Origin: an uncultured Bacteroidota bacterium
GTDB lineage: Bacteria; CLD3; SB21
Direction of reading: 5' to 3'
Assembly (NCBI GenBank): GCA_964544475.1
Contig: CAZJBS010000010.1
Coordinates: 9,961-73,960 of the forward strand
Length of the DNA stretch: 64,000 nucleotides
Part shown: positions 53,729-64,000 of the stretch, piece after piece
How the letters are laid out: the number at the start of each line of letters is the position of its first letter
Numbering within the stretch: the first letter of the stretch is position 1
Translations under genes and position numbers: made by a program
Notes under the pieces: model-generated
Database searches by the model: none
Seen by the model: the letters and a program-made list of their open reading frames with translations, nothing else
Told to the model about the DNA's origin: nothing

Positions 53729-54876
53729 GGCCGGCTTCTTTCGTTCAGGAGGTTCAGGGCCCACGCCAGGCTCTGGCGCAGCGCCCGGCGGTCGTGCCAT
53801 TCGAATAGTCCGGCTTTGCCGATGTCACGCAACAGCACCAGCCGGAGCCGGCCGTCGCGCTTTTTTTTGTCATGGTCCATCCGGCGAATAACGTCTCCGG
53901 CGTCGACGCGGCGAAGGAACGACCGGACCGGTTTTTGCGAGACCACCTGCGCCAGCGGCCGCTCTATCGTCATCAGAATGGTTTCCAGATCGTCCTCGCC
54001 GATCAGGCCGGCCTGTAACGACAGATACGACGCCGCGAGCATGCCGATCCAGACGGCTTCCCCGTGGCGGATTGCCGAAAACCCGCCGGCGCTCTCCAGC
54101 GCATGCCCGAACGTGTGCCCGAAATTGAGGATCATCCGCCTGCCGGCGTCTTTTTCATCCTTTGCCACGACACCGGCCTTGAGGCGCACGCTTTCGCGGA
54201 TGGCTTTCCGGACGACGGGGCCGCGGCTCATCAGGGCCGCATGATGTTTTCTGAGCCATTGAAAAAAAGACGCATCGACGGCCAGACCGTACTTGAAGAC
54301 TTCGGCGAGGCCCGCCAGGTATTCGCGATCGGGCAATGTGTCCAGAAACGCCGTGTCCGTGAGGACCAGCGACGGCTGGTGAAAGACGCCGATGATATTT
54401 TTGGCCAATGGATGGTTGACGGCGACTTTGCCGCCGACGGAACTGTCCACCATCGCCAGCAGAGTCGTGGGCGCCATGACGAGCGGCACGCCGCGCATGT
54501 AGGTGGCCGCCACAAATCCCGCGAGATCGCCGATGACGCCGCCGCCCAGCGCCACGATAACGCTGTCCCGGTCCGCCCCGGCGGTGATGAGACGCGTGTG
54601 AAGATCGAACGCGCGGTCATACGTTTTGAAGGCTTCCCCATCGGGCACCATGAGGATGCGCGCGTCCAGGGCGCGAAACACCGGACGCAGCCGGGGACCA
54701 TGCCGCCGGAGAATGACCGGATTGGTGATGACAAAAAAACGAAACGCGCGGACGGTGCGACGGATCAGCCGGTCCAGACGCGATACGGCGTCGAAAACCA
54801 CCGGGTAGGTGTGACGTCCGGCGCGGACGGTCAGCATGCGGGCCGTCGTGGGCAACGTGGGCGCGGGATCATACAT
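53725..54876 (-). CDS. aroB: 3-dehydroquinate synthase
   Basis: Motifs GGGVIGDLAGFVAATYMRGV, VDSSVGGK and the HTFGHALE metal-binding His pair. The start could instead be the ATG at 54837, which would avoid the 8-nt overlap with ychF. Confidence 0.8.
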   Translation of the reverse strand: MYDPAPTLPTTARMLTVRAGRHTYPVVFDAVSRLDRLIRRTVRAFRFFVITNPVILRRHGPRLRPVFRALDARILMVPDGEAFKTYDRAFDLHTRLITAGADRDSVIVALGGGVIGDLAGFVAATYMRGVPLVMAPTTLLAMVDSSVGGKVAVNHPLAKNIIGVFHQPSLVLTDTAFLDTLPDREYLAGLAEVFKYGLAVDASFFQWLRKHHAALMSRGPVVRKAIRESVRLKAGVVAKDEKDAGRRMILNFGHTFGHALESAGGFSAIRHGEAVWIGMLAASYLSLQAGLIGEDDLETILMTIERPLAQVVSQKPVRSFLRRVDAGDVIRRMDHDKKKRDGRLRLVLLRDIGKAGLFEWHDRRALRQSLAWALNLLNERSRP

Positions 54877-55963
54877 TGAACTTGAAGTGCATCACATCGC
54901 CGTCGCGCACGACGTAGTCGCGGCCTTCGGTGCGGAGAAGACCTTTGTCGCGGCAGGCCTGTTCGGTTTTGTATTTCACATAGTCCTCCCACCAGATCAC
55001 ATCGGCGCAGATGAATCCCCGTTCAAAATCCGAATGGATCGTGCCGGCCGCCTGCGGGTTTTTGGCGCCGCGATGAATGGTCCACGCGCGCACTTCGTCG
55101 GGACCCGCCGTCAGGAAACTCACGAGGTCGAGCAGTACGTAGGTTTCACGGATCAGCGTGTGCAGGCCGGGTTCCTTCAGGCCGATGCTTTCCAGGAAGG
55201 CCGTGCGCTCCTCCGCGGGGAGTTCCGATATTTCCGCTTCGATTTTTCCCGAGATGACGACCACGCGGGCGTTTTCGCGCGACGCGATGGTCCGTACGGT
55301 CTCGACGTACCGGTTGCCGGACAGGACGTCCTGCTCGGATACGTTGCAGATGTAGAGCACGGGTTTGTCGGTCAGGAGGAAGAGGTCGGCGACGTGGTGT
55401 TTTTCCGTTTCGGAAAGGCGGAGCAGGCGGAGCGGTTGGCCGGTGTCGAGATGGGATTTGACGCGCGACAGCGCTTCCACGGCGGCTTTGGCGTCCTTGT
55501 CGCCGGTCTTGGCGGTGCGCTCGGTCTGGGGAAGGCGTTTCTGCACGCTTTCGAGATCCTTGAGCACGAGTTCGGTATGGATGATATCGATGTCGCGGGC
55601 CGGATCGATGCTGCCTTCGACGTGCACGACGTCGGGGTCATCGAAGCACCGCACGACGTGGCCGATGGCGTCGACTTCGCGAATGTGGCTCAGGAACTGG
55701 TTGCCGAGGCCTTCGCCCGCATTGGCGCCTTTGACGAGACCGGCGATATCGACGAAATTGACGGTGGTATAGATGGTTTTTTTCGGTTTCAGCAAAGCCG
55801 ACAGCTGGTCGATGCGGTGGTCCGGCACGATGACGACGCCGACGTTTGGTTCGATGGTGCAGAACGGGTAATTGGCCGCCGCCGCGCCGGCCGCGGTCAG
55901 GGCATTGAATATCGTGGATTTTCCGACATTGGGCAGTCCGACAATTCCGCAATGTAGAGGCAT
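54869..55963 (-). CDS. ychF: Redox-regulated ATPase YchF (Obg-family GTPase)
   Basis: 364 aa. G1 motif GIVGLPNVGKST, a TGS domain and the C-terminal YchF domain. Confidence 0.9.
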   Translation of the reverse strand: MPLHCGIVGLPNVGKSTIFNALTAAGAAAANYPFCTIEPNVGVVIVPDHRIDQLSALLKPKKTIYTTVNFVDIAGLVKGANAGEGLGNQFLSHIREVDAIGHVVRCFDDPDVVHVEGSIDPARDIDIIHTELVLKDLESVQKRLPQTERTAKTGDKDAKAAVEALSRVKSHLDTGQPLRLLRLSETEKHHVADLFLLTDKPVLYICNVSEQDVLSGNRYVETVRTIASRENARVVVISGKIEAEISELPAEERTAFLESIGLKEPGLHTLIRETYVLLDLVSFLTAGPDEVRAWTIHRGAKNPQAAGTIHSDFERGFICADVIWWEDYVKYKTEQACRDKGLLRTEGRDYVVRDGDVMHFKFNV

Positions 55964-56132
55964 GACGCGGGCAACTCCTTCATGGAACGTATGTTTTCAA
56001 AAGACGCGCTAAAGTAGTCGTTCCCGCGAAGAAAATAAAGGAGAATGTGCCGCGCCGGCGTAAAAAACGCCGCGCGGAGTTTCCCGGGCGGCGCGAAAAA
56101 AAAGTGAAACGATTAATTCCTTGACAACCATC

Positions 56133-56162
56133 GGAGCGTGCGCTAACTTGGAACAGCTATCG
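56133..56162 (+). promoter_or_regulatory. Weak sigma-70-like promoter candidate for the first island gene
   Basis: TTGACA, then a 17-bp spacer, then TAACTT. The -10 is poor, so this is a low-confidence call. Confidence 0.2.
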
Positions 56163-56278
56163 CTATCGGGTTATCGTATGAATTCCAGAACAGACTATTT
56201 CAGCGTCGAAATTTTTCACGTCCGGCGGCAGGCTATGGCCGGCCAAGCCAGAACAGCCAGGAACAAAATAACCGACAT

Positions 56279-57049
56279 ATGTCGTCTATCACGCCCAAAA
56301 TGAGAAGATATACGACATGGATCATTCGTTTATGCAATAGTTATCCGACATGGCCCTCGACGAAGAAACACATGAGCGGAGATACTAAACCTGGTGTTCC
56401 TCATCAAACTCTTGGGGACGCAGCCCACGCGCTTCTGAAAGGAACTATCGGCAGTGTTCCGGTAGGCGGTGCTCTTGCTGCGGAATTTTTTAGTTTCGTA
56501 CTAAAACCTCCCATGCAGAAGCGAATGGAGGACTGGATGGCCGACCTGGTTCAGAGGCTGACCGAGATGAAGATGTCGATCGACGATTTGCAAGAGAACC
56601 AGCGTTTCGTCACAAATACACTGCAATCTCTGCGTATTGTTCAAATGACACACTCACCTGAGAAGCTCAGAGCCTTACGGAATGCAGTTCTCAATTCAAT
56701 CGCGCCACCGCCTTTCGACGAATCCTTGGAACAGGTGTTCCTTTCGTATGTTGATTCTTTCACTGATTACCATATTAGGTTTCTTGCTATGATCGCGGAA
56801 CCGAATTGGCCGATCAAACAACGCAAGGTGGTTACCTCACCTGACGCAAATCTTTATGAAATCATCTACCATCACTTTCCGCAGCTGCAAGGATCATCGT
56901 TTGTCACTCAAGTCTTTCAGGATTTGAACGCGCGTGGGCTGCTGGAACCCAACTGGGACCGTGGCTTTAAGCTAAGCTGGAGTAGTGGATATCCGGTGTT
57001 GTCTCCACTCGGAAGATCGTTTCTCAAGTTCATTTCGGAGGCTGAGTAG
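56279..57049 (+). CDS. Hypothetical protein (first gene of the lower-GC island)
   Basis: 256-aa ORF with alternative in-frame starts at 56300 and 56372 (MSGDTKPGV...). The 56279 ATG lies inside a perfect palindrome, cgacatatgtcg. No family recognised. Confidence 0.5.
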   Translation: MSSITPKMRRYTTWIIRLCNSYPTWPSTKKHMSGDTKPGVPHQTLGDAAHALLKGTIGSVPVGGALAAEFFSFVLKPPMQKRMEDWMADLVQRLTEMKMSIDDLQENQRFVTNTLQSLRIVQMTHSPEKLRALRNAVLNSIAPPPFDESLEQVFLSYVDSFTDYHIRFLAMIAEPNWPIKQRKVVTSPDANLYEIIYHHFPQLQGSSFVTQVFQDLNARGLLEPNWDRGFKLSWSSGYPVLSPLGRSFLKFISEAE

Positions 57050-57067
57050 ATGTCTCGGGCCACGTCC

Positions 57068-57234
57068 GATAACATGCGTGCACACGATTGGTCGCCCCGA
57101 CGCGAGCGTCAGATGCCCCCGGCCACGATTTTTGTGCGTCGGGGCTCCCCTACGGCGCACCGCGCGGAACGAATTGAAAACAAATTCATTGATACCGCTT
57201 GTGCGCCGCAGCGTGTGCACGCAGACCGTTATGT
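57068..57234 (+). repeat. attC-like imperfect palindromic element 1
   Basis: 5' end GATAAC-a-tgcgtgcacacg and 3' end cgtgtgcacgca-gacc-GTTATGT. The terminal 12-mers are inverted repeats. It contains an internal 10-bp hairpin (gccccgacgc / gcgtcggggc). It lies in the gap after the first island gene. Confidence 0.45.
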
Positions 57235-57243
57235 GCAATGCCG
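57089..57243 (+). repeat. 155-bp direct repeat, copy A (about 88% identical to 62580..62733)
   Basis: Aligned by eye: tggtcgccccgacgcgag[c/t]gtcagatgcccccggc ... cgaattgaaaacaaattcattgataccg ... cagcgtgtgcacgc ... gttatg[t/c]gcaatg, with a few substitutions and one indel. Confidence 0.8.
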
Positions 57244-57301
57244 CCTAAAAATATGAACAAACCGCACGCCATCATTCTCAACATACATAGGAGAACGTAA
57301 A

Positions 57302-57811
57302 GTGAAATCAAAGACGAACGAGGTTGTCAAGAAACTTCGTGAACTCAACACGATAATAAAATCACTGGATCCTTCTATCCGGCCGCAGTCTTTTGAATTG
57401 CTCCGTCCAGTCTTCTTCAGCGATGAGCCTGAGCACGAGCGAGATCAACGAGACCAGCAAACAGAGACGGCTGGCAAGTCAACAGGCACTCACAACAAAG
57501 AAAAGTTTTTCGGGTCGTTTGATCACAAAAAGCCCAGTGATAACGTCTTCTTGATTGCAGCATGGCTCTACTCCCAACACGGAGTTTTTCCACTCACATC
57601 AGATACTATTAAGGCGGTGGCGGACGAAACAGGTGTCACTGTTCCCGGTAGGCCAGATATGACCCTCAAAGCGGCTCAAAAAAAGGCAAAGCACCTATTT
57701 TCCAAACAAGGCGCTGGTTATAAACCAACTGTTCACGGTGAGACGTTCCTCAAAGACACATATCGAGTCAAGAAAGGAAACAGCCCCATACCAAAGGAGC
57801 CTGAGAATTGA
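57302..57811 (+). CDS. Hypothetical protein, upstream partner of the HEPN-motif protein
   Basis: 169 aa. Its stop overlaps the next gene's start by 4 bp. The C-terminal roughly 70 aa (FLIAAWLYSQHG ... LTSDTIKAV ... GAGYKPTVHGETFLKD) resemble the N-terminal domain of the downstream protein, so the two share a domain. Confidence 0.5.
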   Translation: MKSKTNEVVKKLRELNTIIKSLDPSIRPQSFELLRPVFFSDEPEHERDQRDQQTETAGKSTGTHNKEKFFGSFDHKKPSDNVFLIAAWLYSQHGVFPLTSDTIKAVADETGVTVPGRPDMTLKAAQKKAKHLFSKQGAGYKPTVHGETFLKDTYRVKKGNSPIPKEPEN

Positions 57812-58551
57812 CAATAGTCGAGTTTCTACATCCAATACTGAGATCACCGCACCGGGACCTTTGTGTTGCGGCTCTGTATTATTCGAAAAGATTCCAACAG
57901 TCTGATTCATTAACCGTCGATCAAATTCGTTCGTTGCTTAGAAGAGCTCGTGTTCCAAGTGTTAATAACATCAACATAGCAGACGTGCTTGCTAAATCAG
58001 CTCCTCATGTCGACAGTGCTGGCAAGAAAGGAAAAGCTTTTCTTTGGGCGATCACTTCGTCAGGCGAAAAGCACATACGAGCCTTGCTAAATATTCCTGA
58101 GGTCGATATTGCAACGGTCCATGAGGTCGGCACACTTGAGCGCCTTATCAACTCCATCGGTGATCCTGATGTGGCCAACTATCTAACAGAAGCAGTCACT
58201 TGCCTACGTGTTGACGCTCTTCGTGCCTCTATCGTGTTTCTGTGGGCTGGCGCCGTTCGTACCATTCAAAAGGAAATGATCGATCTTGGCGCGTCCTCAG
58301 TTGACACCGCCTTAAAGAAATTCGACCCCAAATCCCGGTCGATCAAAGGGCTAGACGACTTTGCGTATGTCAAGGATTCGACAGTGCTTCTAGCAGCCCA
58401 AGAACTTGCCATCTTTGACAAGAATGAGCGGTCCACACTCGAGGAGGCTCTGAACTTAAGGAACAAATGTGGTCATCCCAGTAAGTATCGACCTGGCCCG
58501 AAAAAGGCTGCAAGTTTTATTGAAGACGTCACAACCATCGTTTTTTCTTGA
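57808..58551 (+). CDS. HEPN-motif protein (predicted RNase, toxin or abortive-infection type)
   Basis: 247 aa, apparent TTG start. C-terminal R-N-x-x-x-H motif (LNLRNKCGHP, about nt 58459-58476) inside a predicted helical domain, matching the HEPN Rx4-6H signature. N-terminal domain is shared with the preceding gene. Confidence 0.5.
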   Translation: MTIVEFLHPILRSPHRDLCVAALYYSKRFQQSDSLTVDQIRSLLRRARVPSVNNINIADVLAKSAPHVDSAGKKGKAFLWAITSSGEKHIRALLNIPEVDIATVHEVGTLERLINSIGDPDVANYLTEAVTCLRVDALRASIVFLWAGAVRTIQKEMIDLGASSVDTALKKFDPKSRSIKGLDDFAYVKDSTVLLAAQELAIFDKNERSTLEEALNLRNKCGHPSKYRPGPKKAASFIEDVTTIVFS

Positions 58552-58580
58552 GATGGCGTGCGGTTGATAGCGGCACTGCA

Positions 58581-58724
58581 CATAACAGGCCGCACTACGA
58601 CGTTCGCTCATTTGATATGGCGATAAGAAAGCTGTGCAAGAAACAAAAGTGCTCACTCAATGGCTAACCATTCCGCTATTGCTCCATTCGTTAGCTACTG
58701 CGTAGTGCGGCCGGAACGTTAGGC
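58581..58724 (+). repeat. attC-like imperfect palindromic element 2 (best-preserved copy)
   Basis: 5' CATAAC-a-ggccgcactacg and 3' cgtagtgcggcc-ggaac-GTTAGGC. The 12-bp arms are perfectly complementary. The 3' end is a canonical attC core sequence GTTRRRY (GTTAGGC), and the 5' end is an inverse-core-like ATAAC. Confidence 0.5.
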
Positions 58725-58752
58725 GGCATGTCCACGAATCTGAGTATTACAT

Positions 58753-59340
58753 ATGAACCTATTCACAACTGAAGCCCTGCGGCTATTTGTTGTCTTTTTC
58801 GTACCTGGCTTCATTTCAATGCGTGCTTTCTCCCTACTAGTCGCGTCTGAAAGACATGATTTTTCAAAATCATTGGTCGAAGCAATCGCATTTAGTTGCT
58901 TAAACTTTGCTCTTCTTTACTGGCCCATGAGTGTCATCCATTCGAATGATTTTGCTCATCAGTACCCAATACTATACTACCTCAGTGCTCTGGGTATTCT
59001 GTTAGTTGCACCGTGTGCTTGGGCATGGTTGTTCTATCGAATTATGATTTCTGACTGGTACTCGAAACGATTTCGAGACCCTTACCCAACTCCATGGGAC
59101 AGCTTTTTCGCTCGCGGAGAAGCATGTTGGGTAGTTATCCACCTAAAGAGTGGCAGGAAGATTGGTGGTATTTATTCTGGACGCTCTCGCGCATCAGCTT
59201 ATCCGACCGAACAACAAGTCTATCTCGAAGAAGTGTGGGAGGTGGATCAGAAGACCCAACGCTTTCTACGTAAGAAGAATCGGACAGCTGGACTTATAAT
59301 CAGCAGATCAGAGATGACTCACATTGAGTTCTACAGTTAA
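58753..59340 (+). CDS. Hypothetical membrane protein (3 TM helices plus C-terminal soluble domain)
   Basis: 195 aa. Hydrophobic segments LRLFVVFFVPGFISMRAF, AIAFSCLNFALLYWPMSVI and LYYLSALGILLVAPCAWAWLFY. No family recognised. Confidence 0.5.
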   Translation: MNLFTTEALRLFVVFFVPGFISMRAFSLLVASERHDFSKSLVEAIAFSCLNFALLYWPMSVIHSNDFAHQYPILYYLSALGILLVAPCAWAWLFYRIMISDWYSKRFRDPYPTPWDSFFARGEACWVVIHLKSGRKIGGIYSGRSRASAYPTEQQVYLEEVWEVDQKTQRFLRKKNRTAGLIISRSEMTHIEFYS

Positions 59341-59354
59341 GAAAGGATCCGCCA

Positions 59355-59525
59355 ATGGCAGACGAGACGAAAAACACGAATTCCTCTAACGTTCCGAAAT
59401 CGGACGAAAACAAGGGCTCAATCAAGGCGGGACGAGATATCAAAGAGAGTTACAGCCCACGCAACGAGCTCGATACTTCTAAACCGCCGCAGGGAGATGG
59501 TACATCAAAAAAGGACGATAAGTAA
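59355..59525 (+). CDS. Candidate 56-aa hydrophilic, low-complexity small protein
   Basis: ATG 14 nt after the membrane protein stop, preceded by gaaaggatcc (Shine-Dalgarno-like). It encodes MADETKNTNSSNVPKSDENKGSIKAGRDIKESYSPRNELDTSKPPQGDGTSKKDDK, predicted disordered. Not in the ORF track (shorter than 60 aa). Confidence 0.25.
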   Translation: MADETKNTNSSNVPKSDENKGSIKAGRDIKESYSPRNELDTSKPPQGDGTSKKDDK

Positions 59526-59540
59526 GAGCGTGGACTCGCC

Positions 59541-59716
59541 GCATAACAGGCGAGCACACGTTCGCTCGCGGCGTGCTCATTCCCGTCGGGTGCACGCCGC
59601 TTCGCACACGGCGCACCGACGATTTTCGATTGGAGATTATGAATAGATTTGATCTATGAAGAACGATGAAACCAAGATTGGCGGGCGCCGCGTCGTGTGC
59701 TCGCGAACCGTTATGC
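59541..59716 (+). repeat. attC-like imperfect palindromic element 3
   Basis: 5' GCATAAC-a-ggcgagcacacg and 3' cgtgtgctcgcg-aacc-GTTATGC. The arms are inverted repeats. It shares an internal 11-mer, acggcgcaccg, with element 1. Confidence 0.45.
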
Positions 59717-59755
59717 GCAGTTTGCCCGACTGATCACAACCACCAAGGTGCTAAA

Positions 59756-62098
59756 ATGAAACACTTTGCAGAAGTACTTCAAACTCTCGGCGCGAGTAAA
59801 ATCGAGCCACTTTCTGAAACTCAGCATTGGGACTTCTGGAAGGCAGTCTACTCGACTCCAATCTCCGAAGTGAGCGGCTACTATCTATATTTGAAATCGA
59901 GCTGTCCTTGGAAAGAAGGGAACAACAGGGCAAATTGGGACACATGGCAAAAACCTTCAAAGGGAAACTACGAAATTATTGTAACGCCGGCCAGTGACTT
60001 CATAAGGAAGCCCAGTCAAACTATTGCAGCCTTCAAGGGAACTCGCGTGAGAACATCGAAGGAACTCTTGCTGAACAATTTTGTGAAGAGCCTCACACTG
60101 GAAGAAATAATATCAGAGGAAAATTTCATCGACCCGACACTTGAACTTGAGAACGGTCGCGTGAGCCAGGATACCACACACTTTCTCATCTCTTGGATCA
60201 AGGGACGGGATAGTGCAACCAAAGGTGTATCCATTGCAGCTTTGGTTGCTGATGGCGGCGTTGGCAAAACCACAGTGTCTCGTGTACTGAGTCGATCTCT
60301 CCATGAGGACGATCCGACTGTTATCCCTATCCTCATAGAATCCGATCAATGGCGGCATCTGCTTAACACGCCTATTTCGCTTAGCAACCTTTGGGACTTG
60401 GCCATCTCACGGCGCTTTCAGAATGCCGCTAGACTGTTGTCTAATGAAATGGCTTTTCGCGTTCTCGTAAGGGAAGGACTCTTTGTAATCATCTTCGACG
60501 GTTTTGATGAACTTTGCGTTAATTCTTATGCTGTGTCGCGTCCCAAAGAAATTATCGACGAGCTTATAACCCTCCTGTCGCCTGAAGATGAGCCCGTACA
60601 AGCAAAAATTGTATTAACAGCCCGCAGCACGTTCTGGGAGTCATTGGCAGATGAAATCGAGCTTAAGGACATCGAGACATTTTACCTTCGGGGGTTCGAT
60701 AATGATCAACGCAAGAGCTATTTCGACAAAACGCTAACCACTCACGAAGAAAGAGACATTGCAAATCGTTTGTCTCGACAGATTAGTGGAGCCATGTACG
60801 AAGGCATCAAACCTGAAGATCACAATTACGAAAGACCTTCCGGAGTACCATTTATCTTGAGCCTAATCGCCCAGTACGTCCGGGGCAGTGTCCATTTGAT
60901 TGAGGTAAATCCATACATGGCGGACCCGTTGGAGCGTCTCCTCGAAGATATCTGTCGTCGAGAAAACCTTCGACAATCACTTGACATCGAGCCCACAAAA
61001 CAATTAGAGCTTTTTGAGGAACTCTTCCGGGAATATCAGGAATCAATCCAACTAACCGATTTGCAAATGTATCTTGACGTAATCTGCAACATCAACGACA
61101 AAGAGACCGCCAACCGGTTCACGAACCATGTTTTCCTAACTCGCACTGAAAAAGACACTTTTGGGCCGCGCTATGAAGTCCTCCGAGTATACTTTATAGC
61201 ACGCTTCCTTGCCAAAGGCCTGCTTGAGCTGACGACAAAAACTCCTCGACAACAAATCGCACGGTTGCTGGCAAAGAACAGCACCGGAAAGACCCAGGTC
61301 ATCGACTGGCTTATCTTGCAATTGCGTAATTTGGAACAAACAACCCTCATAAGGTCAATACACCACGCACTAGCCATTATTCGCGATCAAGATAACCGTT
61401 CTACGCTCTCTCAGTCTTCTTCGGCGATTTTCCATGTTGTTTCCAGCCTCATCTCGGGCGGCGACAAAGATGAACGCACTCGTCTACTCTGTGATTTCTA
61501 TAATATCGATAGAAGCGGCACAGTTGTTTTCAAGGCAGTTGTATTCGCAGGTGTGGTCCGGTCCTTCAGTTTTCGTGACGCAATCTTCGAGAAATGTGAA
61601 TTTTACGATGTCGAGTTTAAGAATTGCACTTTTGGCGATGCTTCTACATTCCGAACATGTAGCTTCTACGGAAATCTTAAATTTACTAATTGTTCAAATG
61701 CGGGCTCGATAAAAACACAGATCTGCACTTTTTCAAGGGAATCAGAGTTCGCACTTGATGTCATTAGAAACTCACACTCAAGAATGGAGCTAAAACGTTC
61801 TTTCGCAGAAGAAGCATTGTCCCGATCCCTTCGCAAGTTTCGAAAGGACAATCGGTTTATTCCTATCCAGTACGAGCACCGCAAGACTGGATTCAAGCCA
61901 GGCAACCCATATAACGAGACAGTGTGGCAGGAACTTGAACGAGCTGGGCTTATTCACTCTCATCACATATCTGGAGTCACCGGCGGAGGTCTCAACATTG
62001 TCGACGACAAGAACGTGCGACGAGAAGTGTCGTCCTTCCTGGACAATGGCGTACTTGGCAATTTGTTGACCAACGTGCTAACAAAAATGATCACATAA
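59756..62098 (+). CDS. STAND/NACHT-like P-loop NTPase with C-terminal pentapeptide-repeat region (antiphage-sensor-like architecture)
   Basis: Start placed at MKHFAEVLQ (ATG 59756, AAGGTG Shine-Dalgarno upstream), about 780 aa. Walker A ALVADGGVGKTTV (about nt 60254-60271). Walker B hhhhDGFDE (FVIIFDGFDEL, about nt 60497-60511). A long helical middle region. Pentapeptide-like repeats (AVVFAGVVRSFSFRDAIFEKCEFYDVEFKNCTFGDASTFRTCSFYGNLKFTNCSN, about nt 61580-61770). The N-terminal roughly 160 aa are of unknown function. Confidence 0.65.
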   Translation: MKHFAEVLQTLGASKIEPLSETQHWDFWKAVYSTPISEVSGYYLYLKSSCPWKEGNNRANWDTWQKPSKGNYEIIVTPASDFIRKPSQTIAAFKGTRVRTSKELLLNNFVKSLTLEEIISEENFIDPTLELENGRVSQDTTHFLISWIKGRDSATKGVSIAALVADGGVGKTTVSRVLSRSLHEDDPTVIPILIESDQWRHLLNTPISLSNLWDLAISRRFQNAARLLSNEMAFRVLVREGLFVIIFDGFDELCVNSYAVSRPKEIIDELITLLSPEDEPVQAKIVLTARSTFWESLADEIELKDIETFYLRGFDNDQRKSYFDKTLTTHEERDIANRLSRQISGAMYEGIKPEDHNYERPSGVPFILSLIAQYVRGSVHLIEVNPYMADPLERLLEDICRRENLRQSLDIEPTKQLELFEELFREYQESIQLTDLQMYLDVICNINDKETANRFTNHVFLTRTEKDTFGPRYEVLRVYFIARFLAKGLLELTTKTPRQQIARLLAKNSTGKTQVIDWLILQLRNLEQTTLIRSIHHALAIIRDQDNRSTLSQSSSAIFHVVSSLISGGDKDERTRLLCDFYNIDRSGTVVFKAVVFAGVVRSFSFRDAIFEKCEFYDVEFKNCTFGDASTFRTCSFYGNLKFTNCSNAGSIKTQICTFSRESEFALDVIRNSHSRMELKRSFAEEALSRSLRKFRKDNRFIPIQYEHRKTGFKPGNPYNETVWQELERAGLIHSHHISGVTGGGLNIVDDKNVRREVSSFLDNGVLGNLLTNVLTKMIT

Positions 62099-62131
62099 GG
62101 GATTTATAATGGCCGTGCGGTCGGGCAAACT

Positions 62132-62341
62132 GCGCATAACACGCGCATAAACCGTTCGTTCGGGCACTTGCTTTTGTGCGGTACCTGTGTCCCAATCTTT
62201 TGGGTAGTCAATCTGTAAACATTATGACCATTCAACAAAAAGTGCCCTCACCAACCATGCACGCGCCGCAAACAACAGCAGTTGAAGACTTTTATCAAAG
62301 GCGGCTTGTGCGTGGCTGCGGTTATACGCCGGACGTTAGGG
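62132..62341 (+). repeat. attC-like imperfect palindromic element 4
   Basis: 5' GCGCATAAC-acgcgcataaaccg, where the motif is tandemly reiterated, and 3' cggttatacgc-cggac-GTTAGGG. The arms are roughly complementary (gcgcataaaccg versus gcgtataaccg). Confidence 0.4.
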
Positions 62342-62579
62342 TTCCGTCGCACGACTTTTTTTCTTTCTCGACTTTGTTGGGGCTATGATGTAATTTGATC
62401 CTGTAAGTTCATTTCTTGGGGAGTAGCAAGTGGCTCTGGGTTCAGTTCTTTCGTGCATTTCAAGTCTCGTTCAGGAAAACGAATACCGCGCTCGTGCGAT
62501 TCGTACGGGGTTGAACGGTCATACCAGTTGCCGAGATTTCGATTGGGATTCCCGAATTCCTCCTCCCCGTGCCACGTCC

Positions 62580-62733
62580 TGGTCGCCCCGACGCGAGTGT
62601 CAGATGCCCCCGGCTGCGATTTTTGTGCGCCGGGCTTCCCTCGGCGCACGGCGCGGATCGAATTGAAAACAAATTCATTGATACCGATTGTGCACCGCAG
62701 CGTGTGCACGCGTGACGTTATGCGCAATGACTG
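62580..62733 (+). repeat. 155-bp direct repeat, copy B (about 88% identical to 57089..57243). A decayed attC-like element that keeps its 3' end.
   Basis: 3' end cgtgtgcacgcg-tgac-GTTATGC is retained. The 5' arm is degenerate (ccgtgccacg versus cgtgcacacg) and the ATAAC is lost (gaattc). The internal hairpin of copy A is disrupted here (gcgccgggc). Confidence 0.8.
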
Positions 62734-62755
62734 CGACCTGAGTCCCAACTAACTT

Positions 62756-63367
62756 ATGGCACCCTATCAGAGAATTCCCATATGGGAGAACCGGCTGCGC
62801 GTGAAGCGTCTTTGGCAGTTTCGAGAGGCTCTGCAACTGTACTTCGCCGCTTATTCAGCCTCGCGAGTATCGTTTAGCGATTCTCACAGACACCATCGCG
62901 TAACTGTGAACTTACAAATACACTCCGTCTATTCCATGGTTCAAGATGCAGGAATTGATACTTCGTTTTCTGGGCCTCATCGGTCATCATCTGTCACTCT
63001 TGATCGAAAGGCGGATCTTGTTCTAGACGTATTCTCTTTGGTAGATCTCAACATCGATCCCCAGTACCTTGGAGATTGTATTGTAAGAGCTATTGGTAAG
63101 TACAATGACGACCGCGCAAGAGCCGTTTTGCGAACGATCAATCCGTTGTTCTGGGCGGGTAAGCTGGTTGATGCCGTTCTTGATCTGCCATTGAAACTTT
63201 TGCGGAGCTTCGGTATCAAAGTACCCAAAATTGAAGACACACTTGCCGGCAGAGTTATTGGCGGACTGCTCAAGTCTGTGACTTATCTGGCCGCCTTTCT
63301 GACTGTCGCCGAAAAGCTGGGCTATCTTGAGACATTCAAAGGTTTTCTTAAATCTGCGTCACCCTGA
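62756..63367 (+). CDS. Hypothetical protein (203 aa)
   Basis: ORF about 20 bp downstream of repeat B. No family recognised. Confidence 0.5.
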   Translation: MAPYQRIPIWENRLRVKRLWQFREALQLYFAAYSASRVSFSDSHRHHRVTVNLQIHSVYSMVQDAGIDTSFSGPHRSSSVTLDRKADLVLDVFSLVDLNIDPQYLGDCIVRAIGKYNDDRARAVLRTINPLFWAGKLVDAVLDLPLKLLRSFGIKVPKIEDTLAGRVIGGLLKSVTYLAAFLTVAEKLGYLETFKGFLKSASP

Positions 63368-63436
63368 AACTGAGGGCGCAGTCAATGCGCATAACACCTT
63401 AAAAGAGTTCGAAGTCAATAGAAAAAGCCCTCCCGT

Positions 63437-63460
63437 GGCGACCGGGTCGCCTATTTTGTT
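63437..63460 (+). terminator. Rho-independent terminator downstream of the 62756..63367 gene
   Basis: ggcgacc-g-ggtcgcc perfect 7-bp stem followed by tattttgtt. It lies inside a candidate fifth palindromic element that is bounded by GCGCATAAC at 63387 and a weak GTTATCC at 63670. Confidence 0.45.
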
Positions 63461-63711
63461 GGCTTTTTGCTTCGATAACCGATGGGCCGACGCCTGGCAT
63501 GTCTTTACGAATGGTGAAGCAAGTTGCATCGACATCCATGACGATACGAATTGAAAATACGATTGAACCCATGGCCGAGACTTCACCCATGCCCTGCGCG
63601 AAGCCAAGGAATCCTCAAGGTAGGATTTGTCAGATGCGGCTTGCAGGGTACGGCGTGTATCGGCGGGACGTTATCCGACACCCCCAAAACAGTGCTCAAA
63701 AGAGGTATCAA

Positions 63712-64000
63712 ATGAATTTGCCAGAAGATCGTAATCGCACTTTATCCCAGTTTCGAGAAGGGCCGATGCTACTCGACAAGACTGTCAGCGATCTGCAAGA
63801 CTCCGAATTGGATCTCATTCCTACCGAAGGTGGATGGTCTATTCGACAGATCGTCCATCACATTGTGGATGGGGATGATATTTGGAAGTTTGGTATCAAG
63901 ATGGCCATTGGTAACGAACAGGCTGAATTTTCACTGGAATGGTACTCCTCACAGACGCAAGATACTTGGGCTGATCGATGGGCGTACACCCAAAGATCAA
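63712..64000 (+). CDS. DinB_2 (DinB/YfiT-like) family protein, 5' portion (runs off the window end)
   Basis: ATG at 63712. MNLPEDRNRTLSQFREGPMLLDKTVSDLQDSELDLIPTEGGWSIRQIVHHIVDGDDIWK contains the metal-binding His region typical of DinB_2. No stop before the window end. Confidence 0.55.
   Translation, partial: MNLPEDRNRTLSQFREGPMLLDKTVSDLQDSELDLIPTEGGWSIRQIVHHIVDGDDIWKFGIKMAIGNEQAEFSLEWYSSQTQDTWADRWAYTQRS

What the first reader, a model, noticed from the sequence alone, without database searches (positions are those of the whole stretch)
59756..62098. STAND/NACHT-type NTPase fused to a pentapeptide-repeat C-terminus and an unknown N-terminal domain, inside the cassette island
The protein has Walker A GGVGKTT and the NACHT-style Walker B hhhhDGFDE. 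It is about 780 aa, with a C-terminal run of A(D/N)LxF-like pentapeptide repeats rich in F, C and N residues.

Bacterial NACHT and STAND NTPases (Avs, bNACHT) are established antiphage sensors of the form N-terminal effector, NTPase, C-terminal sensor repeats. I do not recall a pentapeptide-repeat sensor arm combined with this roughly 160-aa N-terminal domain, which has no recognisable nuclease or TIR motif, among described systems.

The gene is preceded by the inverted pair of GCGCATAAC motifs (element 3) and followed by element 4.
Basis: partly seen in the sequence, partly recalled or inferred. Interest (0 to 1): 0.65.

Follow-up and report, generated by a model that had tools for sequence, protein, structure and literature searches.

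The report
Bacterial NLR-like gene on integron cassette
The gene encodes an intact bacterial relative of animal NLR immune sensors (a NACHT ATPase with a short pentapeptide-repeat segment) carried on a mobile integron cassette; it is probably an untested single-gene anti-phage sensor whose N-terminal domain resembles nothing known.

Summary
Window 59756-62098 (+) encodes a 780-aa protein with Walker A GGVGKTT and the NACHT-specific Walker B FDGFDE. It passes Pfam's NACHT threshold, and its AlphaFold model matches NLRC4, NOD2 and NLRP3 best.

The pentapeptide run is real but short: about 11 units at aa 590-650. It is not the C-terminus, because a conserved roughly 120-aa alpha/beta domain follows it.

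The N-terminal roughly 150 aa form a confidently modelled alpha/beta domain. It has no Pfam, PDB or viral-structure match and no conserved nuclease-type catalytic residues. In 1.84 billion representative proteins it occurs only at the N-terminus of this one roughly 780-aa architecture.

The gene is a complete single-gene integron cassette (59711-62321) with 21-nt perfectly complementary ends. At least three homologues elsewhere are also cassettes. Others sit beside restriction-modification, GmrSD or HipBA genes, and no partner gene recurs.

NACHT plus pentapeptide architectures were already catalogued (Kibby et al., clades 9 and 10), and integron-borne defence is known. This is therefore an uncharacterised variant of a known kind, not a new category. 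Its function is inferred, not shown.

The parts
59756..62098 (+). Complete gene for a 780-aa NACHT (bacterial NLR-related) protein, including the stop codon at 62096-62098.
   Evidence: ORF listing. 100% identical to P0001, with about 100 full-length homologues. Pfam NACHT above the gathering score. AF2 model with mean pLDDT 87.3.
59745..59750 (+). Shine-Dalgarno-like AAGGTG, 5 nt upstream of the ATG.
   Evidence: Read directly from the sequence.
59756..60205 (+). N-terminal orphan alpha/beta domain, aa 1-150 (core 1-112: helix, three strands, helix, strand, helix, strand).
   Evidence: Domain model has pLDDT 89.7, about 97 in the core. No Pfam or PDB sequence match. No Foldseek hit with E<1e-3 in PDB or BFVD. 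Found only at the N-terminus of roughly 780-aa proteins among 1.84e9 representatives. No conserved PD-(D/E)xK triad.
60230..60745 (+). NACHT nucleotide-binding domain, aa 159-330. Walker A GGVGKTT is at 60257-60277. Walker B VIIFDGFDE is at 60485-60511. The sensor-1 T288xR290 motif also lies here.
   Evidence: Pfam PF05729 covers aa 168-327. Invariant G168, G170, K171, T172, T173, F247, D248, G249, D251, E252, T288 and R290.
60746..61174 (+). Helical domain 1 plus the winged-helix domain of the NACHT module, aa 331-473, with invariant His458 (61127-61129).
   Evidence: DSSP of the model. H458 is invariant. Kibby et al. describe the winged-helix His as a defining NACHT residue. Full-length Foldseek alignments to NLRC4 and NOD2.
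61175..61501 (+). All-helical region after the winged helix, aa 474-582 (equivalent of HD2 or a spacer).
   Evidence: DSSP helices 474-581.
61523..61720 (+). Short pentapeptide-repeat beta segment, aa 590-655, with about 11 (C/A/S)xFxx units.
   Evidence: Pentapeptide_3 at 22.9 bits covers aa 605-646. 24 of 36 family members hit Pentapeptide_3 and 9 of 36 hit Pentapeptide_4. The model shows short beta-strands throughout. Conserved C614, N623, C624, C635 and C646.
61733..62095 (+). Conserved C-terminal alpha/beta domain, aa 660-780. Its secondary-structure order (helix, helix, helix, beta-hairpin, then two helices) resembles a winged helix.
   Evidence: DSSP. Invariant S660, L692, P718, W724 and L727, and conserved basic residues 693, 694, 696, 709 and 755. 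No Pfam or PDB sequence match. The fold assignment is inference only.
59711..62321 (+). The integron gene cassette carrying the NACHT gene, 2611 bp, from the TT of the upstream R' box to the G of its own R' box.
   Evidence: 21-nt perfect complementarity between the cassette's 5' end (59710-59730) and the R'' side of its 3' attC (62120-62140). Neighbouring cassettes show the same pattern (I1 and I5).
59539..59716 (.). attC site of the preceding (DUF6338) cassette. Its R' box GTTATGC at 59710 marks the left boundary of the NACHT cassette.
   Evidence: R'' CGCATAAC and R' GTTATGCG boxes. The bottom strand folds as a long imperfect hairpin, -49.7 kcal/mol, z = -3.8, with 0 of 200 shuffles as stable.
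62120..62327 (.). attC site of the NACHT cassette (R'' GCGCATAAC at 62132-62140, R' GTTATAC at 62321-62327).
   Evidence: D1 and D3 repeat families. The fold is only marginally better than shuffles, z = -1.9.

Best explanation
**What it is.** The gene encodes a single-polypeptide bacterial NLR-related (bNACHT) conflict sensor. It is most likely an anti-phage, abortive-infection type switch, and here it is stored as a mobile integron gene cassette.

**Shown**
- It has an intact NACHT ATPase with all catalytic and regulatory motifs.
- The five-part architecture is fixed across the family: orphan N-domain, NACHT module, helical region, short pentapeptide beta segment, C-terminal alpha/beta domain.
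- No partner gene is conserved next to it.
- It has a patchy distribution across many phyla.
- It sits in cassettes or next to defence genes in several genomes.

**Inferred mechanism, by analogy with NLRs, Avs and bNACHT proteins**
1. In the resting state the NACHT module holds ADP through the Walker A lysine K171 and the winged-helix His458, which keeps the protein monomeric.
2. The C-terminal module senses an infection cue. This module is the pentapeptide beta-helix plus the alpha/beta domain. Pentapeptide beta-helices are shaped like DNA in Qnr and MfpA, so the cue could be a phage DNA-binding protein.
3. Ligand binding releases autoinhibition and allows ATP binding and oligomerisation.
4. 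Oligomerisation clusters the N-terminal domains, whose proximity triggers a toxic or growth-arresting output.

The chemistry of that output is unknown. The N-domain has no conserved nuclease-like catalytic set.
For: **NACHT identity**
- Pfam NACHT scores 35.1 against a gathering score of 26.7 in this protein, and hits 36 of 36 family members.
- The D[GAS]hDE Walker B (FDGFDE), Walker A, T288xR290 and His458 are all invariant. Kibby et al. give these signatures as defining.
- The best structural matches are NLRC4 (7e-12), NOD2 and NLRP3, ahead of EfAvs5 (4.6e-6) and Apaf-1.
- The best PDB sequence relatives of the family profile are NLRP1 and NLRP3.

**Single-gene system**
- Among 78 neighbouring ORFs at 11 loci, no Pfam family recurs more than twice.

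**Conflict context**
- P0002 lies between HipBA and AAA_14 on one side and SLFN/AlbA_2 plus a type I R-M system on the other, next to integrases.
- P0041 lies between GmrSD, an MmeI/Eco57I-type enzyme, a T5orf172-ResIII protein and a PLD nuclease.
- PADLOC hits among neighbours include PglX, HmaB, a type I S subunit, mad3, mad8, AriA and PDC candidates.

**Mobility**
- The window copy is a bona fide cassette.
- L015, L074 and L075 also show cassette-type ends and attC-like palindromes.
- Integron cassettes are documented reservoirs of phage-defence genes.
- The family is spread over Desulfobacterota, Gallionella, Binatota, Bacteroidota, Nitrospirota, Verrucomicrobiota, Rhodocyclales, Geobacterales and other lineages.

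**Precedent**
- bNACHT proteins protect against phage, and pentapeptide repeats are listed among their sensor repeats.
Against: - There is no experimental evidence for any member of this family. No PADLOC model hits it, and no pentapeptide-bearing bNACHT was tested by Kibby et al..
- The N-domain lacks any conserved catalytic constellation and has no recognisable effector fold. The 'effector' step is therefore pure analogy.
- No domain is hypervariable. Column entropy is 1.7-2.1 bits in all domains, unlike the fast-evolving sensor of bNACHT01.
- Several homologues sit among housekeeping genes.
- No family member was found in IMG/VR viral contigs, so there is no prophage link.
- No sigma-70-like promoter lies directly upstream, and no integron integrase or Pc promoter is visible in the window. 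This copy may therefore be silent.
Confidence: 0.55

Rival explanations
1. It is a STAND-type signal-transducing transcription regulator, analogous to MalT or AfsR. The orphan N-domain or the pentapeptide segment would sense a metabolite or protein, and the C-terminal winged-helix-like domain would bind DNA as the output. It would not be an immune protein.
For: - The C-terminal domain has a helix, helix, helix, beta-hairpin order resembling a winged helix.
- It has a cluster of conserved basic residues: R/K693, K/R694, R/K696, R709 and R755.
- Conservation is even across all domains, with no sign of an arms race.
- Some copies sit among housekeeping genes.
Against: - No HTH or winged-helix Pfam family, and no PDB sequence, matches the C-domain profile.
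- There is no conserved neighbouring operon or regulon.
- The family has a sporadic, HGT-like distribution across phyla.
- It has been captured repeatedly in integron cassettes and it lies in defence islands.
- The NTPase is of the NACHT clade, not the MalT or SARP clades.
Confidence: 0.12
2. It is a conflict system directed at something other than phage. Candidates are anti-plasmid or anti-MGE immunity, a kin-discrimination or programmed-death switch, or an addiction-like module that stabilises the cassette array.
For: - The NACHT clade includes fungal incompatibility and multicellular-bacteria death systems.
- The cassette and defence-island contexts do not distinguish phage targets from other mobile-element targets.
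- There is no prophage or viral association.
Against: - All experimentally tested bNACHT proteins with a phenotype were antiphage.
- There is no antitoxin-like partner gene in the cassette. Only 22 bp separate the stop codon from the attC, and 45 bp separate the R' box from the start codon.
- The hosts are diverse unicellular lineages.
Confidence: 0.2
3. It is a silent or decaying passenger. The cassette would be a promoterless reservoir copy in an integrase-less array (CALIN) and would contribute nothing to the present host.
For: - No integrase was found at the 5' side of the array, where ychF lies instead.
- There is no promoter-like site upstream of the gene.
- The gene is the fourth coding unit from the ychF edge of the array.
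- Several homologues in other genomes have broken reading frames (L019, L020, L023, L032).
Against: - The reading frame is intact over 780 codons with every invariant family residue preserved.
- A Shine-Dalgarno sequence is present.
- The identical protein was recovered from three independent sequencing runs or records.
- Being silent in the array does not change what the protein is.
Confidence: 0.1

Closest known systems
Bacterial NACHT (bNACHT, NLR-related) antiphage proteins of Kibby et al. 2022/2023, especially their clades 9 (NNH3/NNH4+NACHT+Pentapeptide) and 10 (NACHT+short Pentapeptide+beta-propeller)
   Same: - NACHT module with the D[GAS]hDE Walker B and the winged-helix His.
- Single polypeptide with N-terminal, NACHT and C-terminal parts.
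- Pentapeptide repeats immediately C-terminal to the NACHT module.
   Different: - The N-terminus is a roughly 150-aa alpha/beta orphan domain, not the helical NNH3/NNH4 or EAD adaptor domains listed for clade 9.
- The protein is shorter: 780 aa against roughly 900-1270.
- The pentapeptide run is only about 11 units.
- It ends in a private alpha/beta domain instead of long repeats or a beta-propeller.
- No pentapeptide-bearing bNACHT has been tested experimentally.
Animal NLRs (NLRC4, NOD2, NLRP3, NLRP1)
   Same: They are the best structural matches (E from 7e-12 to 1e-8) and the best sequence matches of the NTPase module. Walker A, Walker B, sensor-1 and the winged-helix His are the same.
   Different: - There are no LRR, CARD or PYD domains.
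- Identity is 10-14%.
- The TM-score is only 0.24-0.36 over the full length, because the flanking domains differ.
Avs / AVAST STAND antiphage NTPases
   Same: The logic is the same: N-terminal output, a STAND NTPase and a C-terminal sensor in one gene, often in defence islands. EfAvs5 is a significant structural match at 4.6e-6.
   Different: - The NTPase is NACHT-clade and not the Avs type.
- No PADLOC Avs model hits it.
- There is no TPR sensor and no nuclease, SIR2 or protease effector.
Pentapeptide-repeat proteins (Qnr, MfpA, AlbG)
   Same: The period-5 (A/C/S)x(F/L)xx repeat. There are weak hits to Pentapeptide_3, Pentapeptide_4 and QnrA.
   Different: Only 2-3 coils, embedded in a large NTPase. 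It is not a stand-alone DNA-mimic dimer. Any DNA-mimic role here is speculation.
Integron-borne phage-defence cassettes (BRiCs; Kieffer 2025, Darracq 2025, Getz 2025)
   Same: - A defence-type gene packaged as a promoterless cassette with its own attC.
- Homologues without attC occur in defence islands elsewhere. This is the pattern Kieffer et al. describe as recruitment from islands to integrons.
   Different: - At 2.6 kb this is a long cassette.
- The attC sites are unusually long, about 150-300 nt.
- No integrase is visible in the window.
- No NACHT or STAND cassette is mentioned in the two integron papers searched.
- A full-text search for integron, cassette and NACHT together found no paper describing one.

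Membership tests
NACHT clade of STAND NTPases | Walker A GxxxxGK[ST] | tested here: met
   GGVGKTT at aa 168-174. G168, G170, K171, T172 and T173 are invariant in 36 sequences.
NACHT clade of STAND NTPases | Walker B with the D[GAS]hDE signature (as defined by Kibby et al. and Leipe et al.) | tested here: met
   F247-D248-G249-F250-D251-E252. D248, G249, D251 and E252 are invariant. The definition is quoted.
NACHT clade of STAND NTPases | Curated profile match (Pfam PF05729 gathering score) | tested here: met
   35.1 bits against 26.7. 36 of 36 family members match, with a best E-value of 1.7e-14.
NACHT clade of STAND NTPases | Winged-helix extension with the conserved ADP-contacting histidine (NLRC4 H443 equivalent) | tested here: inconclusive
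   His458 is invariant. It sits just before a beta-hairpin (strands 461-465 and 468-471) after helices 433-455. Residue-level equivalence to H443 was not checked by superposition.
NACHT clade of STAND NTPases | Structural similarity to solved NACHT proteins greater than to other STAND or AAA+ clades | tested here: met
   In the Foldseek PDB search, NLRC4, NOD2, NLRP3, NLRP9 and NLRP1 rank 1-41. EfAvs5 is rank 42, ORC/Cdc6 is rank 44 onward and Apaf-1 is rank 46.
bNACHT antiphage proteins (Kibby et al.) | Protection against phage that depends on the Walker A lysine | not testable with these tools
   This needs an experiment. No pentapeptide-bearing bNACHT is among the 27 proteins tested.
bNACHT antiphage proteins (Kibby et al.) | Recognised effector or adaptor domain at the N-terminus | tested here: not met
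   The N-domain has no Pfam, PDB or BFVD match and no conserved catalytic triad. Clade 14 (bNACHT01) also lacks one, so this feature does not exclude membership.
Kibby clade 9 (NNH3/NNH4+NACHT+Pentapeptide) | Helical NNH3 or NNH4 domain N-terminal to the NACHT module, and placement in the NACHT-module phylogeny | tested here: inconclusive
   The N-domain here is alpha/beta with a three-stranded sheet, which is unlike a 'helical' NNH domain. No NNH models or clade reference sequences were available for a direct test.
Pentapeptide-repeat (right-handed quadrilateral beta-helix) proteins | Tandem A(D/N)LXX-type repeats recognised by Pfam pentapeptide models | tested here: met
   The query is sub-threshold: Pentapeptide_3 scores 22.9 against 27. 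At family level, Pentapeptide_3 hits 24 of 36 members (best 1.3e-8), Pentapeptide_4 hits 9 of 36 and PF00805 hits 2 of 36. F residues at 606, 611, 616, 621 and 626 are spaced by 5, read from the sequence.
Pentapeptide-repeat (right-handed quadrilateral beta-helix) proteins | Predicted beta-helix geometry | tested here: inconclusive
   The model shows only short beta-strands over aa 590-655, with pLDDT above 90. Coordinates could not be inspected to confirm the four-sided helix.
Avs / AVAST | Match to Avs-type STAND profiles (PADLOC) | tested here: not met
   No PADLOC family matches at E<=1 for the query. For 36 members there are only stray weak hits.
Integron gene cassette | attC site at the 3' end with R''(..AAC) and R'(GTT..) boxes and an imperfect palindrome | tested here: met
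   GCGCATAAC at 62132 and GTTATACGC at 62321. The upstream attC folds with z = -3.8. The cassette's own attC reaches only z = -1.9.
Integron gene cassette | The cassette's 5' end (after G|TT) is complementary to its own R'' side, which is the signature of a circularisable unit | tested here: met
   21 of 21 nt are complementary between 59710-59730 and 62120-62140. Adjacent cassettes show 27-nt and 24-nt equivalents (I1 and I5).
Integron gene cassette | Part of an array adjacent to an integron integrase and attI | tested here: not met
   The array of at least 6 attC sites starts next to ychF and aroB, with no integrase there. It runs off the window at 64000. The status is CALIN or incomplete. 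An integrase beyond the window is not excluded.

The most novel reading that the evidence does not exclude
**The reading.** This roughly 780-aa family would be a distinct, previously undescribed bNACHT lineage with three new properties:
- Its private N-terminal alpha/beta domain is a new kind of proximity-activated, non-nuclease effector.
- Its short pentapeptide beta-helix, together with the C-terminal winged-helix-like domain, acts as a DNA-mimic or DNA-binding bait that senses phage DNA-binding proteins.
- The whole sensor has been captured repeatedly and independently by integrons with unrelated attC types. That would make NLR-like immunity a tradable cassette function.
Probability: 0.25. 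Interest if true: 0.65.

Novelty: new variant of a known kind. Interest (0 to 1): 0.42.

Why it matters
**If the protein is an active defence gene**
- It would add a compact, single-gene NLR-like sensor with an unknown output domain to the bacterial immune repertoire.
- It would give a tractable entry point to a new effector chemistry, because the 150-aa domain occurs nowhere else.
- It would be the first test of pentapeptide repeats as an immune sensing element.

**For integron biology**
- It would show that integrons, so far known mostly for small cassettes, can shuttle a 2.6-kb NLR-type sensor.
- At least four family members lie in cassettes with unrelated attC sites. This supports the view that integrons recruit defence genes from genomic islands.

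**If it is not a defence gene**, it remains an ordinary uncharacterised NACHT protein in an environmental genome.

Tried and rejected
**Structure libraries that were not installed**
- The N-domain could therefore only be compared by Foldseek with PDB and BFVD. Nothing scored below E = 1e-3.
- The best query-normalised TM-scores (TMq) among PDB hits were 0.35 for MspJI and 0.32 for Cap4, and the best overall was 0.36 for an unnamed BFVD viral protein; all are too weak to use.

**PD-(D/E)xK nuclease idea for the N-domain**
- The helix, three strands, helix, strand topology suggested it.
- It was rejected as an active nuclease. Position 26 at the start of strand 2 is variable, strand 3 reads YLYLK with no acidic residue, and K47 is lost in one subclade.

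**Profile searches that found nothing**
- Pfam and PDB profile searches of the N-domain (A2) and C-domain (A3) gave nothing.
- A word-indexed search with the C-domain profile returned only two fragments of the same family.
- PADLOC gave no match for the protein, for 36 homologues or for the neighbouring cassette proteins.
- Rfam found nothing in 54000-64000.
- IMG/VR viral contigs hold no relatives.

**Cassette detection**
- My first strict attC finder, which required RYYYAAC/GTTRRRY, found nothing because these sites read GCATAAC/GTTATGC. I replaced it with an own-ends complementarity test.

**Host and integrase**
- Host taxonomy could not be resolved. The closest named YchF proteins are labelled only '[bacterium]' at about 80% identity. 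The next closest are about 60% identical and come from Bacteroidota, Kapabacteria, Kryptonia and Geobacter.
- The tyrosine recombinase near the L015 cassette is XerD-like rather than IntI-like.
Full report
**1. The observation**

The region contains one long ORF on the + strand, 59666..62098, 810 aa.
- It gives a 780-aa product identical to database protein P0001, and it aligns end to end with about 100 homologues that all begin MKHF... or similar.
- It is preceded by AAGGTG 5 nt upstream.
- The 90-nt upstream extension would read through the attC R' box at 59710.

Walker A GGVGKTT (aa 168-174) and Walker B VIIFDGFDE (aa 244-252) are present and invariant in a 36-sequence family alignment. No competing ORF longer than 106 aa lies on the opposite strand.

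**2. NTPase class**

Several independent lines place the NTPase in the NACHT clade:
- Pfam NACHT (PF05729) scores 35.1 bits against a gathering score of 26.7. It hits 36 of 36 family members.
- Walker B carries the D[GAS]hDE signature (D248-G249-F250-D251-E252). Kibby et al., following Leipe et al., use this signature to separate NACHT from other STAND clades.
- T288xR290 (sensor 1) and His458 in the winged-helix region are invariant. The winged-helix His is described as a defining NACHT residue.
- An AlphaFold2 model built on the 36-sequence alignment has mean pLDDT 87.3. Its best PDB matches by Foldseek are NLRC4 (7e-12), NOD2 and NLRP3. These rank ahead of EfAvs5 (4.6e-6), ORC/Cdc6 and Apaf-1.
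- The family profile's best PDB sequence relatives are NLRP1 and NLRP3.

The refutation condition of a 'housekeeping AAA+ or transport ATPase' is not met.

**3. Architecture**

The model's secondary structure and the alignment give five parts.

| Part | Residues | Description |
|---|---|---|
| a | 1-150 | Alpha/beta N-domain |
| b | 159-473 | NACHT nucleotide-binding domain, helical domain and winged helix |
| c | 474-582 | Helical region |
| d | 590-655 | Short beta-strands with period-5 (C/A/S)xFxx repeats, about 11 units |
| e | 660-780 | Conserved alpha/beta domain |

- In part d, F606, F611, F616, F621 and F626 are spaced by exactly 5 residues.
- Part e runs helix, helix, helix, beta-hairpin, then two helices, which resembles a winged helix. 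That fold assignment is inference.

The pentapeptide call is sub-threshold in this protein: Pentapeptide_3 scores 22.9 against 27. It is supported at family level, with 24 of 36 members hitting Pentapeptide_3 (best 1.3e-8) and 9 of 36 hitting Pentapeptide_4. The run is only 2-3 coils long and is followed by another domain.

Column entropy is similar in all domains, at 1.7-2.1 bits. No part shows the hypervariability reported for the bNACHT01 sensor.

**4. The N-terminal domain**

- A separate model of aa 1-158, built from 30 sequences, has pLDDT 89.7 and about 97 across the core.
- Its topology is helix, three strands, helix, strand, helix, strand. This recalls restriction-endonuclease-like folds.
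- The PD-(D/E)xK positions are not conserved, so it is not an active nuclease of that type. Invariant residues are W25, P35, N60, Y72, F93 and P127. Conserved polar residues are E6, T34, Y43, C50, E54 and D/E126.
- Profile searches against Pfam and PDB sequences find nothing.
- Foldseek against PDB and BFVD gives no hit below E = 1e-3. The best query-normalised TM-scores (TMq) are 0.35 for MspJI and 0.32 for Cap4 in PDB, and 0.36 for an unnamed viral protein in BFVD.
- An exhaustive HMMER search of 1.84 billion representative proteins finds only 82 hits. All are at the N-terminus of roughly 780-aa proteins, or are short fragments, apart from three repetitive false positives.

**5. Genomic setting in the window**

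*Array boundary.* Housekeeping genes aroB and ychF end at about 55963. At that point G+C drops from about 0.60 to about 0.48.

*attC sites.* From there to the end of the window, all coding ORFs are on the + strand. They are separated by long imperfect palindromes bounded by ..ATAAC and GTTAT.. boxes.

*The NACHT cassette.* The 5' end of the NACHT unit (59710-59730) is a perfect 21-nt reverse complement of the sequence just 3' of the gene (62120-62140) (I4). This is what is expected if the unit is an integron cassette that recombined at G|TT. The two neighbouring units show the same own-ends pairing, with 27 and 24 nt (I1 and I5).

*Folding.* The upstream attC bottom strand folds far better than shuffles, with z = -3.8. 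The cassette's own attC is marginal, with z = -1.9.

*Contents.* The NACHT cassette spans 59711-62321 (2611 bp) and holds this one gene.

*Missing pieces.* No integrase or attI is seen at the 5' side. In this window the array is a CALIN, or the rest of the integron lies beyond 64000. No sigma-70-like promoter precedes the gene, which is consistent with a promoterless cassette.

**6. The family elsewhere**

*Size and spread.* There are 113 clusters at 90% identity. About 100 are full length at 34-63% identity, and those that carry a name at all are called 'NACHT domain-containing protein' or 'hypothetical protein'. Species-representative genomes hold about 17 close and about 15 distant full-length relatives. 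Nearly all are environmental MAGs from many phyla.

*Neighbours.* There is no conserved neighbour. Among 78 flanking ORFs from 11 loci, no Pfam family recurs more than twice. This argues for a self-contained single-gene system.

*Defence-rich contexts:*
- HipBA, SLFN/AlbA_2, a type I R-M system and integrases around P0002.
- GmrSD, an MmeI/Eco57I-type enzyme, T5orf172-ResIII and a PLD nuclease around P0041.
- PADLOC hits to PglX, HmaB, a type I S subunit, mad3, mad8, AriA and PDC candidates among the 78 flanking ORFs.

*Housekeeping contexts.* Other copies sit among housekeeping genes.

*Other cassettes.* With a relaxed own-ends test, three further members also behave as cassettes with visible attC-like palindromes of the classical 75-90-nt type. 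They are L015 (Desulfobacterales MAG, 9 nt), L074 (8 nt) and L075 (7 nt). Most members do not. The family has therefore been recruited into integrons more than once, with unrelated attC sites.

*Viral contigs.* None of the family is found in IMG/VR viral contigs.

**7. Comparison with what is known**

- Kibby et al. showed that bacterial NACHT proteins defend against phage.
- They list pentapeptide repeats among the 'antigen-receptor type' C-terminal repeats.
- Their Table S1 contains many NACHT+Pentapeptide architectures, in clade 9 (NNH3/NNH4+NACHT+Pentapeptide) and clade 10 (NACHT+short Pentapeptide+beta-propeller).
However, none of the 27 experimentally tested proteins carries pentapeptide repeats.
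- The present family differs from the listed clade 9 and 10 examples in three ways: its alpha/beta rather than helical N-domain, its smaller size, and its private C-terminal domain. Whether its NACHT module falls inside one of those clades could not be tested.
- PADLOC v2 has no model for it.
- Integron cassettes as reservoirs of defence systems, and their recruitment from defence islands, are established. I found no paper that mentions a NACHT cassette.

**8. Most likely mechanism**

*Shown:* an intact NACHT switch, a fixed architecture, autonomy from neighbouring genes, and a mobile, conflict-type genomic ecology.

*Inferred by analogy with NLR, Avs and bNACHT proteins:*
1. An ADP-bound autoinhibited monomer is the resting state.
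2. The C-terminal pentapeptide and alpha/beta module senses an infection cue.
3. ATP-dependent oligomerisation follows.
4. The clustered N-domains deliver a growth-arresting output.

The idea that the pentapeptide segment acts as a DNA-shaped bait is speculation based on Qnr and MfpA. The N-domain's activity is unknown.

*Main rivals:*
- A MalT-like regulator using the C-terminal winged-helix-like domain as its output.
- A conflict system that is not directed at phage.
- A silent reservoir copy.

**9. Verdict**

The 'new architecture' claim is weakened, because NACHT+pentapeptide is known. What remains of interest:
- An orphan N-terminal domain confined to this family.
- An unassigned C-terminal domain.
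- Repeated capture of a 2.6-kb NLR-like gene by integrons.

The gene is an uncharacterised variant of a known kind, with no functional evidence. Interest is moderate.

Noticed in passing
window 55964-64000: An integron-type cassette array starts directly next to ychF and aroB, where G+C drops from about 0.60 to 0.48. It runs off the end of the window. It has at least 6 attC sites (about 57064-57235, 58570-58724, 59539-59716, 62120-62327, about 62555-62723 and 63369-63675). No integrase lies at the 5' side, so in this window it is a CALIN or an incomplete integron. The attC sites are unusually long, about 150-300 nt.
   Followed up: partly
window 57089-57240 and 62580-62729: Two attC sites in the array are 90% identical over about 150 nt (repeat families D2 and D5). 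The other attC sites share only the terminal boxes. This suggests a recent duplication or a shared origin for those two cassettes.
   Followed up: no
window 62322-62717: A roughly 396-bp unit between two attC R' boxes has no convincing ORF. It may be an empty or non-coding cassette.
   Followed up: no
window 57302-58551 and 58753-59525: The neighbouring cassettes hold two overlapping genes (169 aa and 247 aa, the latter flagged PF27235 AF_1680) and a DUF6338 protein followed by a 56-aa ORF. None hits PADLOC. Two-gene cassettes of unknown function in a putative defence 'biobank' may be worth a separate look.
   Followed up: partly
L019, L020, L023, L032 (genome-contig loci): In four genomes the reading frame of the homologue is interrupted well before the end of the tblastn match. 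One example is L023, which is 61% identical but has an ORF of only about 210 codons. These may be pseudogenised copies or assembly frameshifts.
   Followed up: no
L076:3385-4844: A DDE transposase (IS) gene abuts, with a 4-nt overlap, the stop codon of homologue P0005. This is another sign that the family sits in mobile contexts.
   Followed up: no
L015:14860-15846 (-): A tyrosine recombinase lies 2.5 kb downstream of the cassette-borne homologue in a Desulfobacterales MAG. Its best PDB match is XerD (2.6e-21), not the integron integrase IntI4 (6.5e-10). It is therefore probably not a canonical IntI.
   Followed up: partly
L070 (Logan SRR10064596 contig) against window about 56180: Independent short-read assemblies of the same organism break about 220 bp beyond ychF. 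They recover the NACHT cassette on separate 3-5 kb contigs. Cassette-array repeats or strain variation would explain this fragmentation.
   Followed up: no
whole window (host identity): The host is an uncultured lineage. The nearest named YchF proteins are labelled only '[bacterium]' at about 80% identity. The next nearest, at about 60%, come from Bacteroidota, Kapabacteria, Kryptonia and Geobacteraceae.
   Followed up: partly
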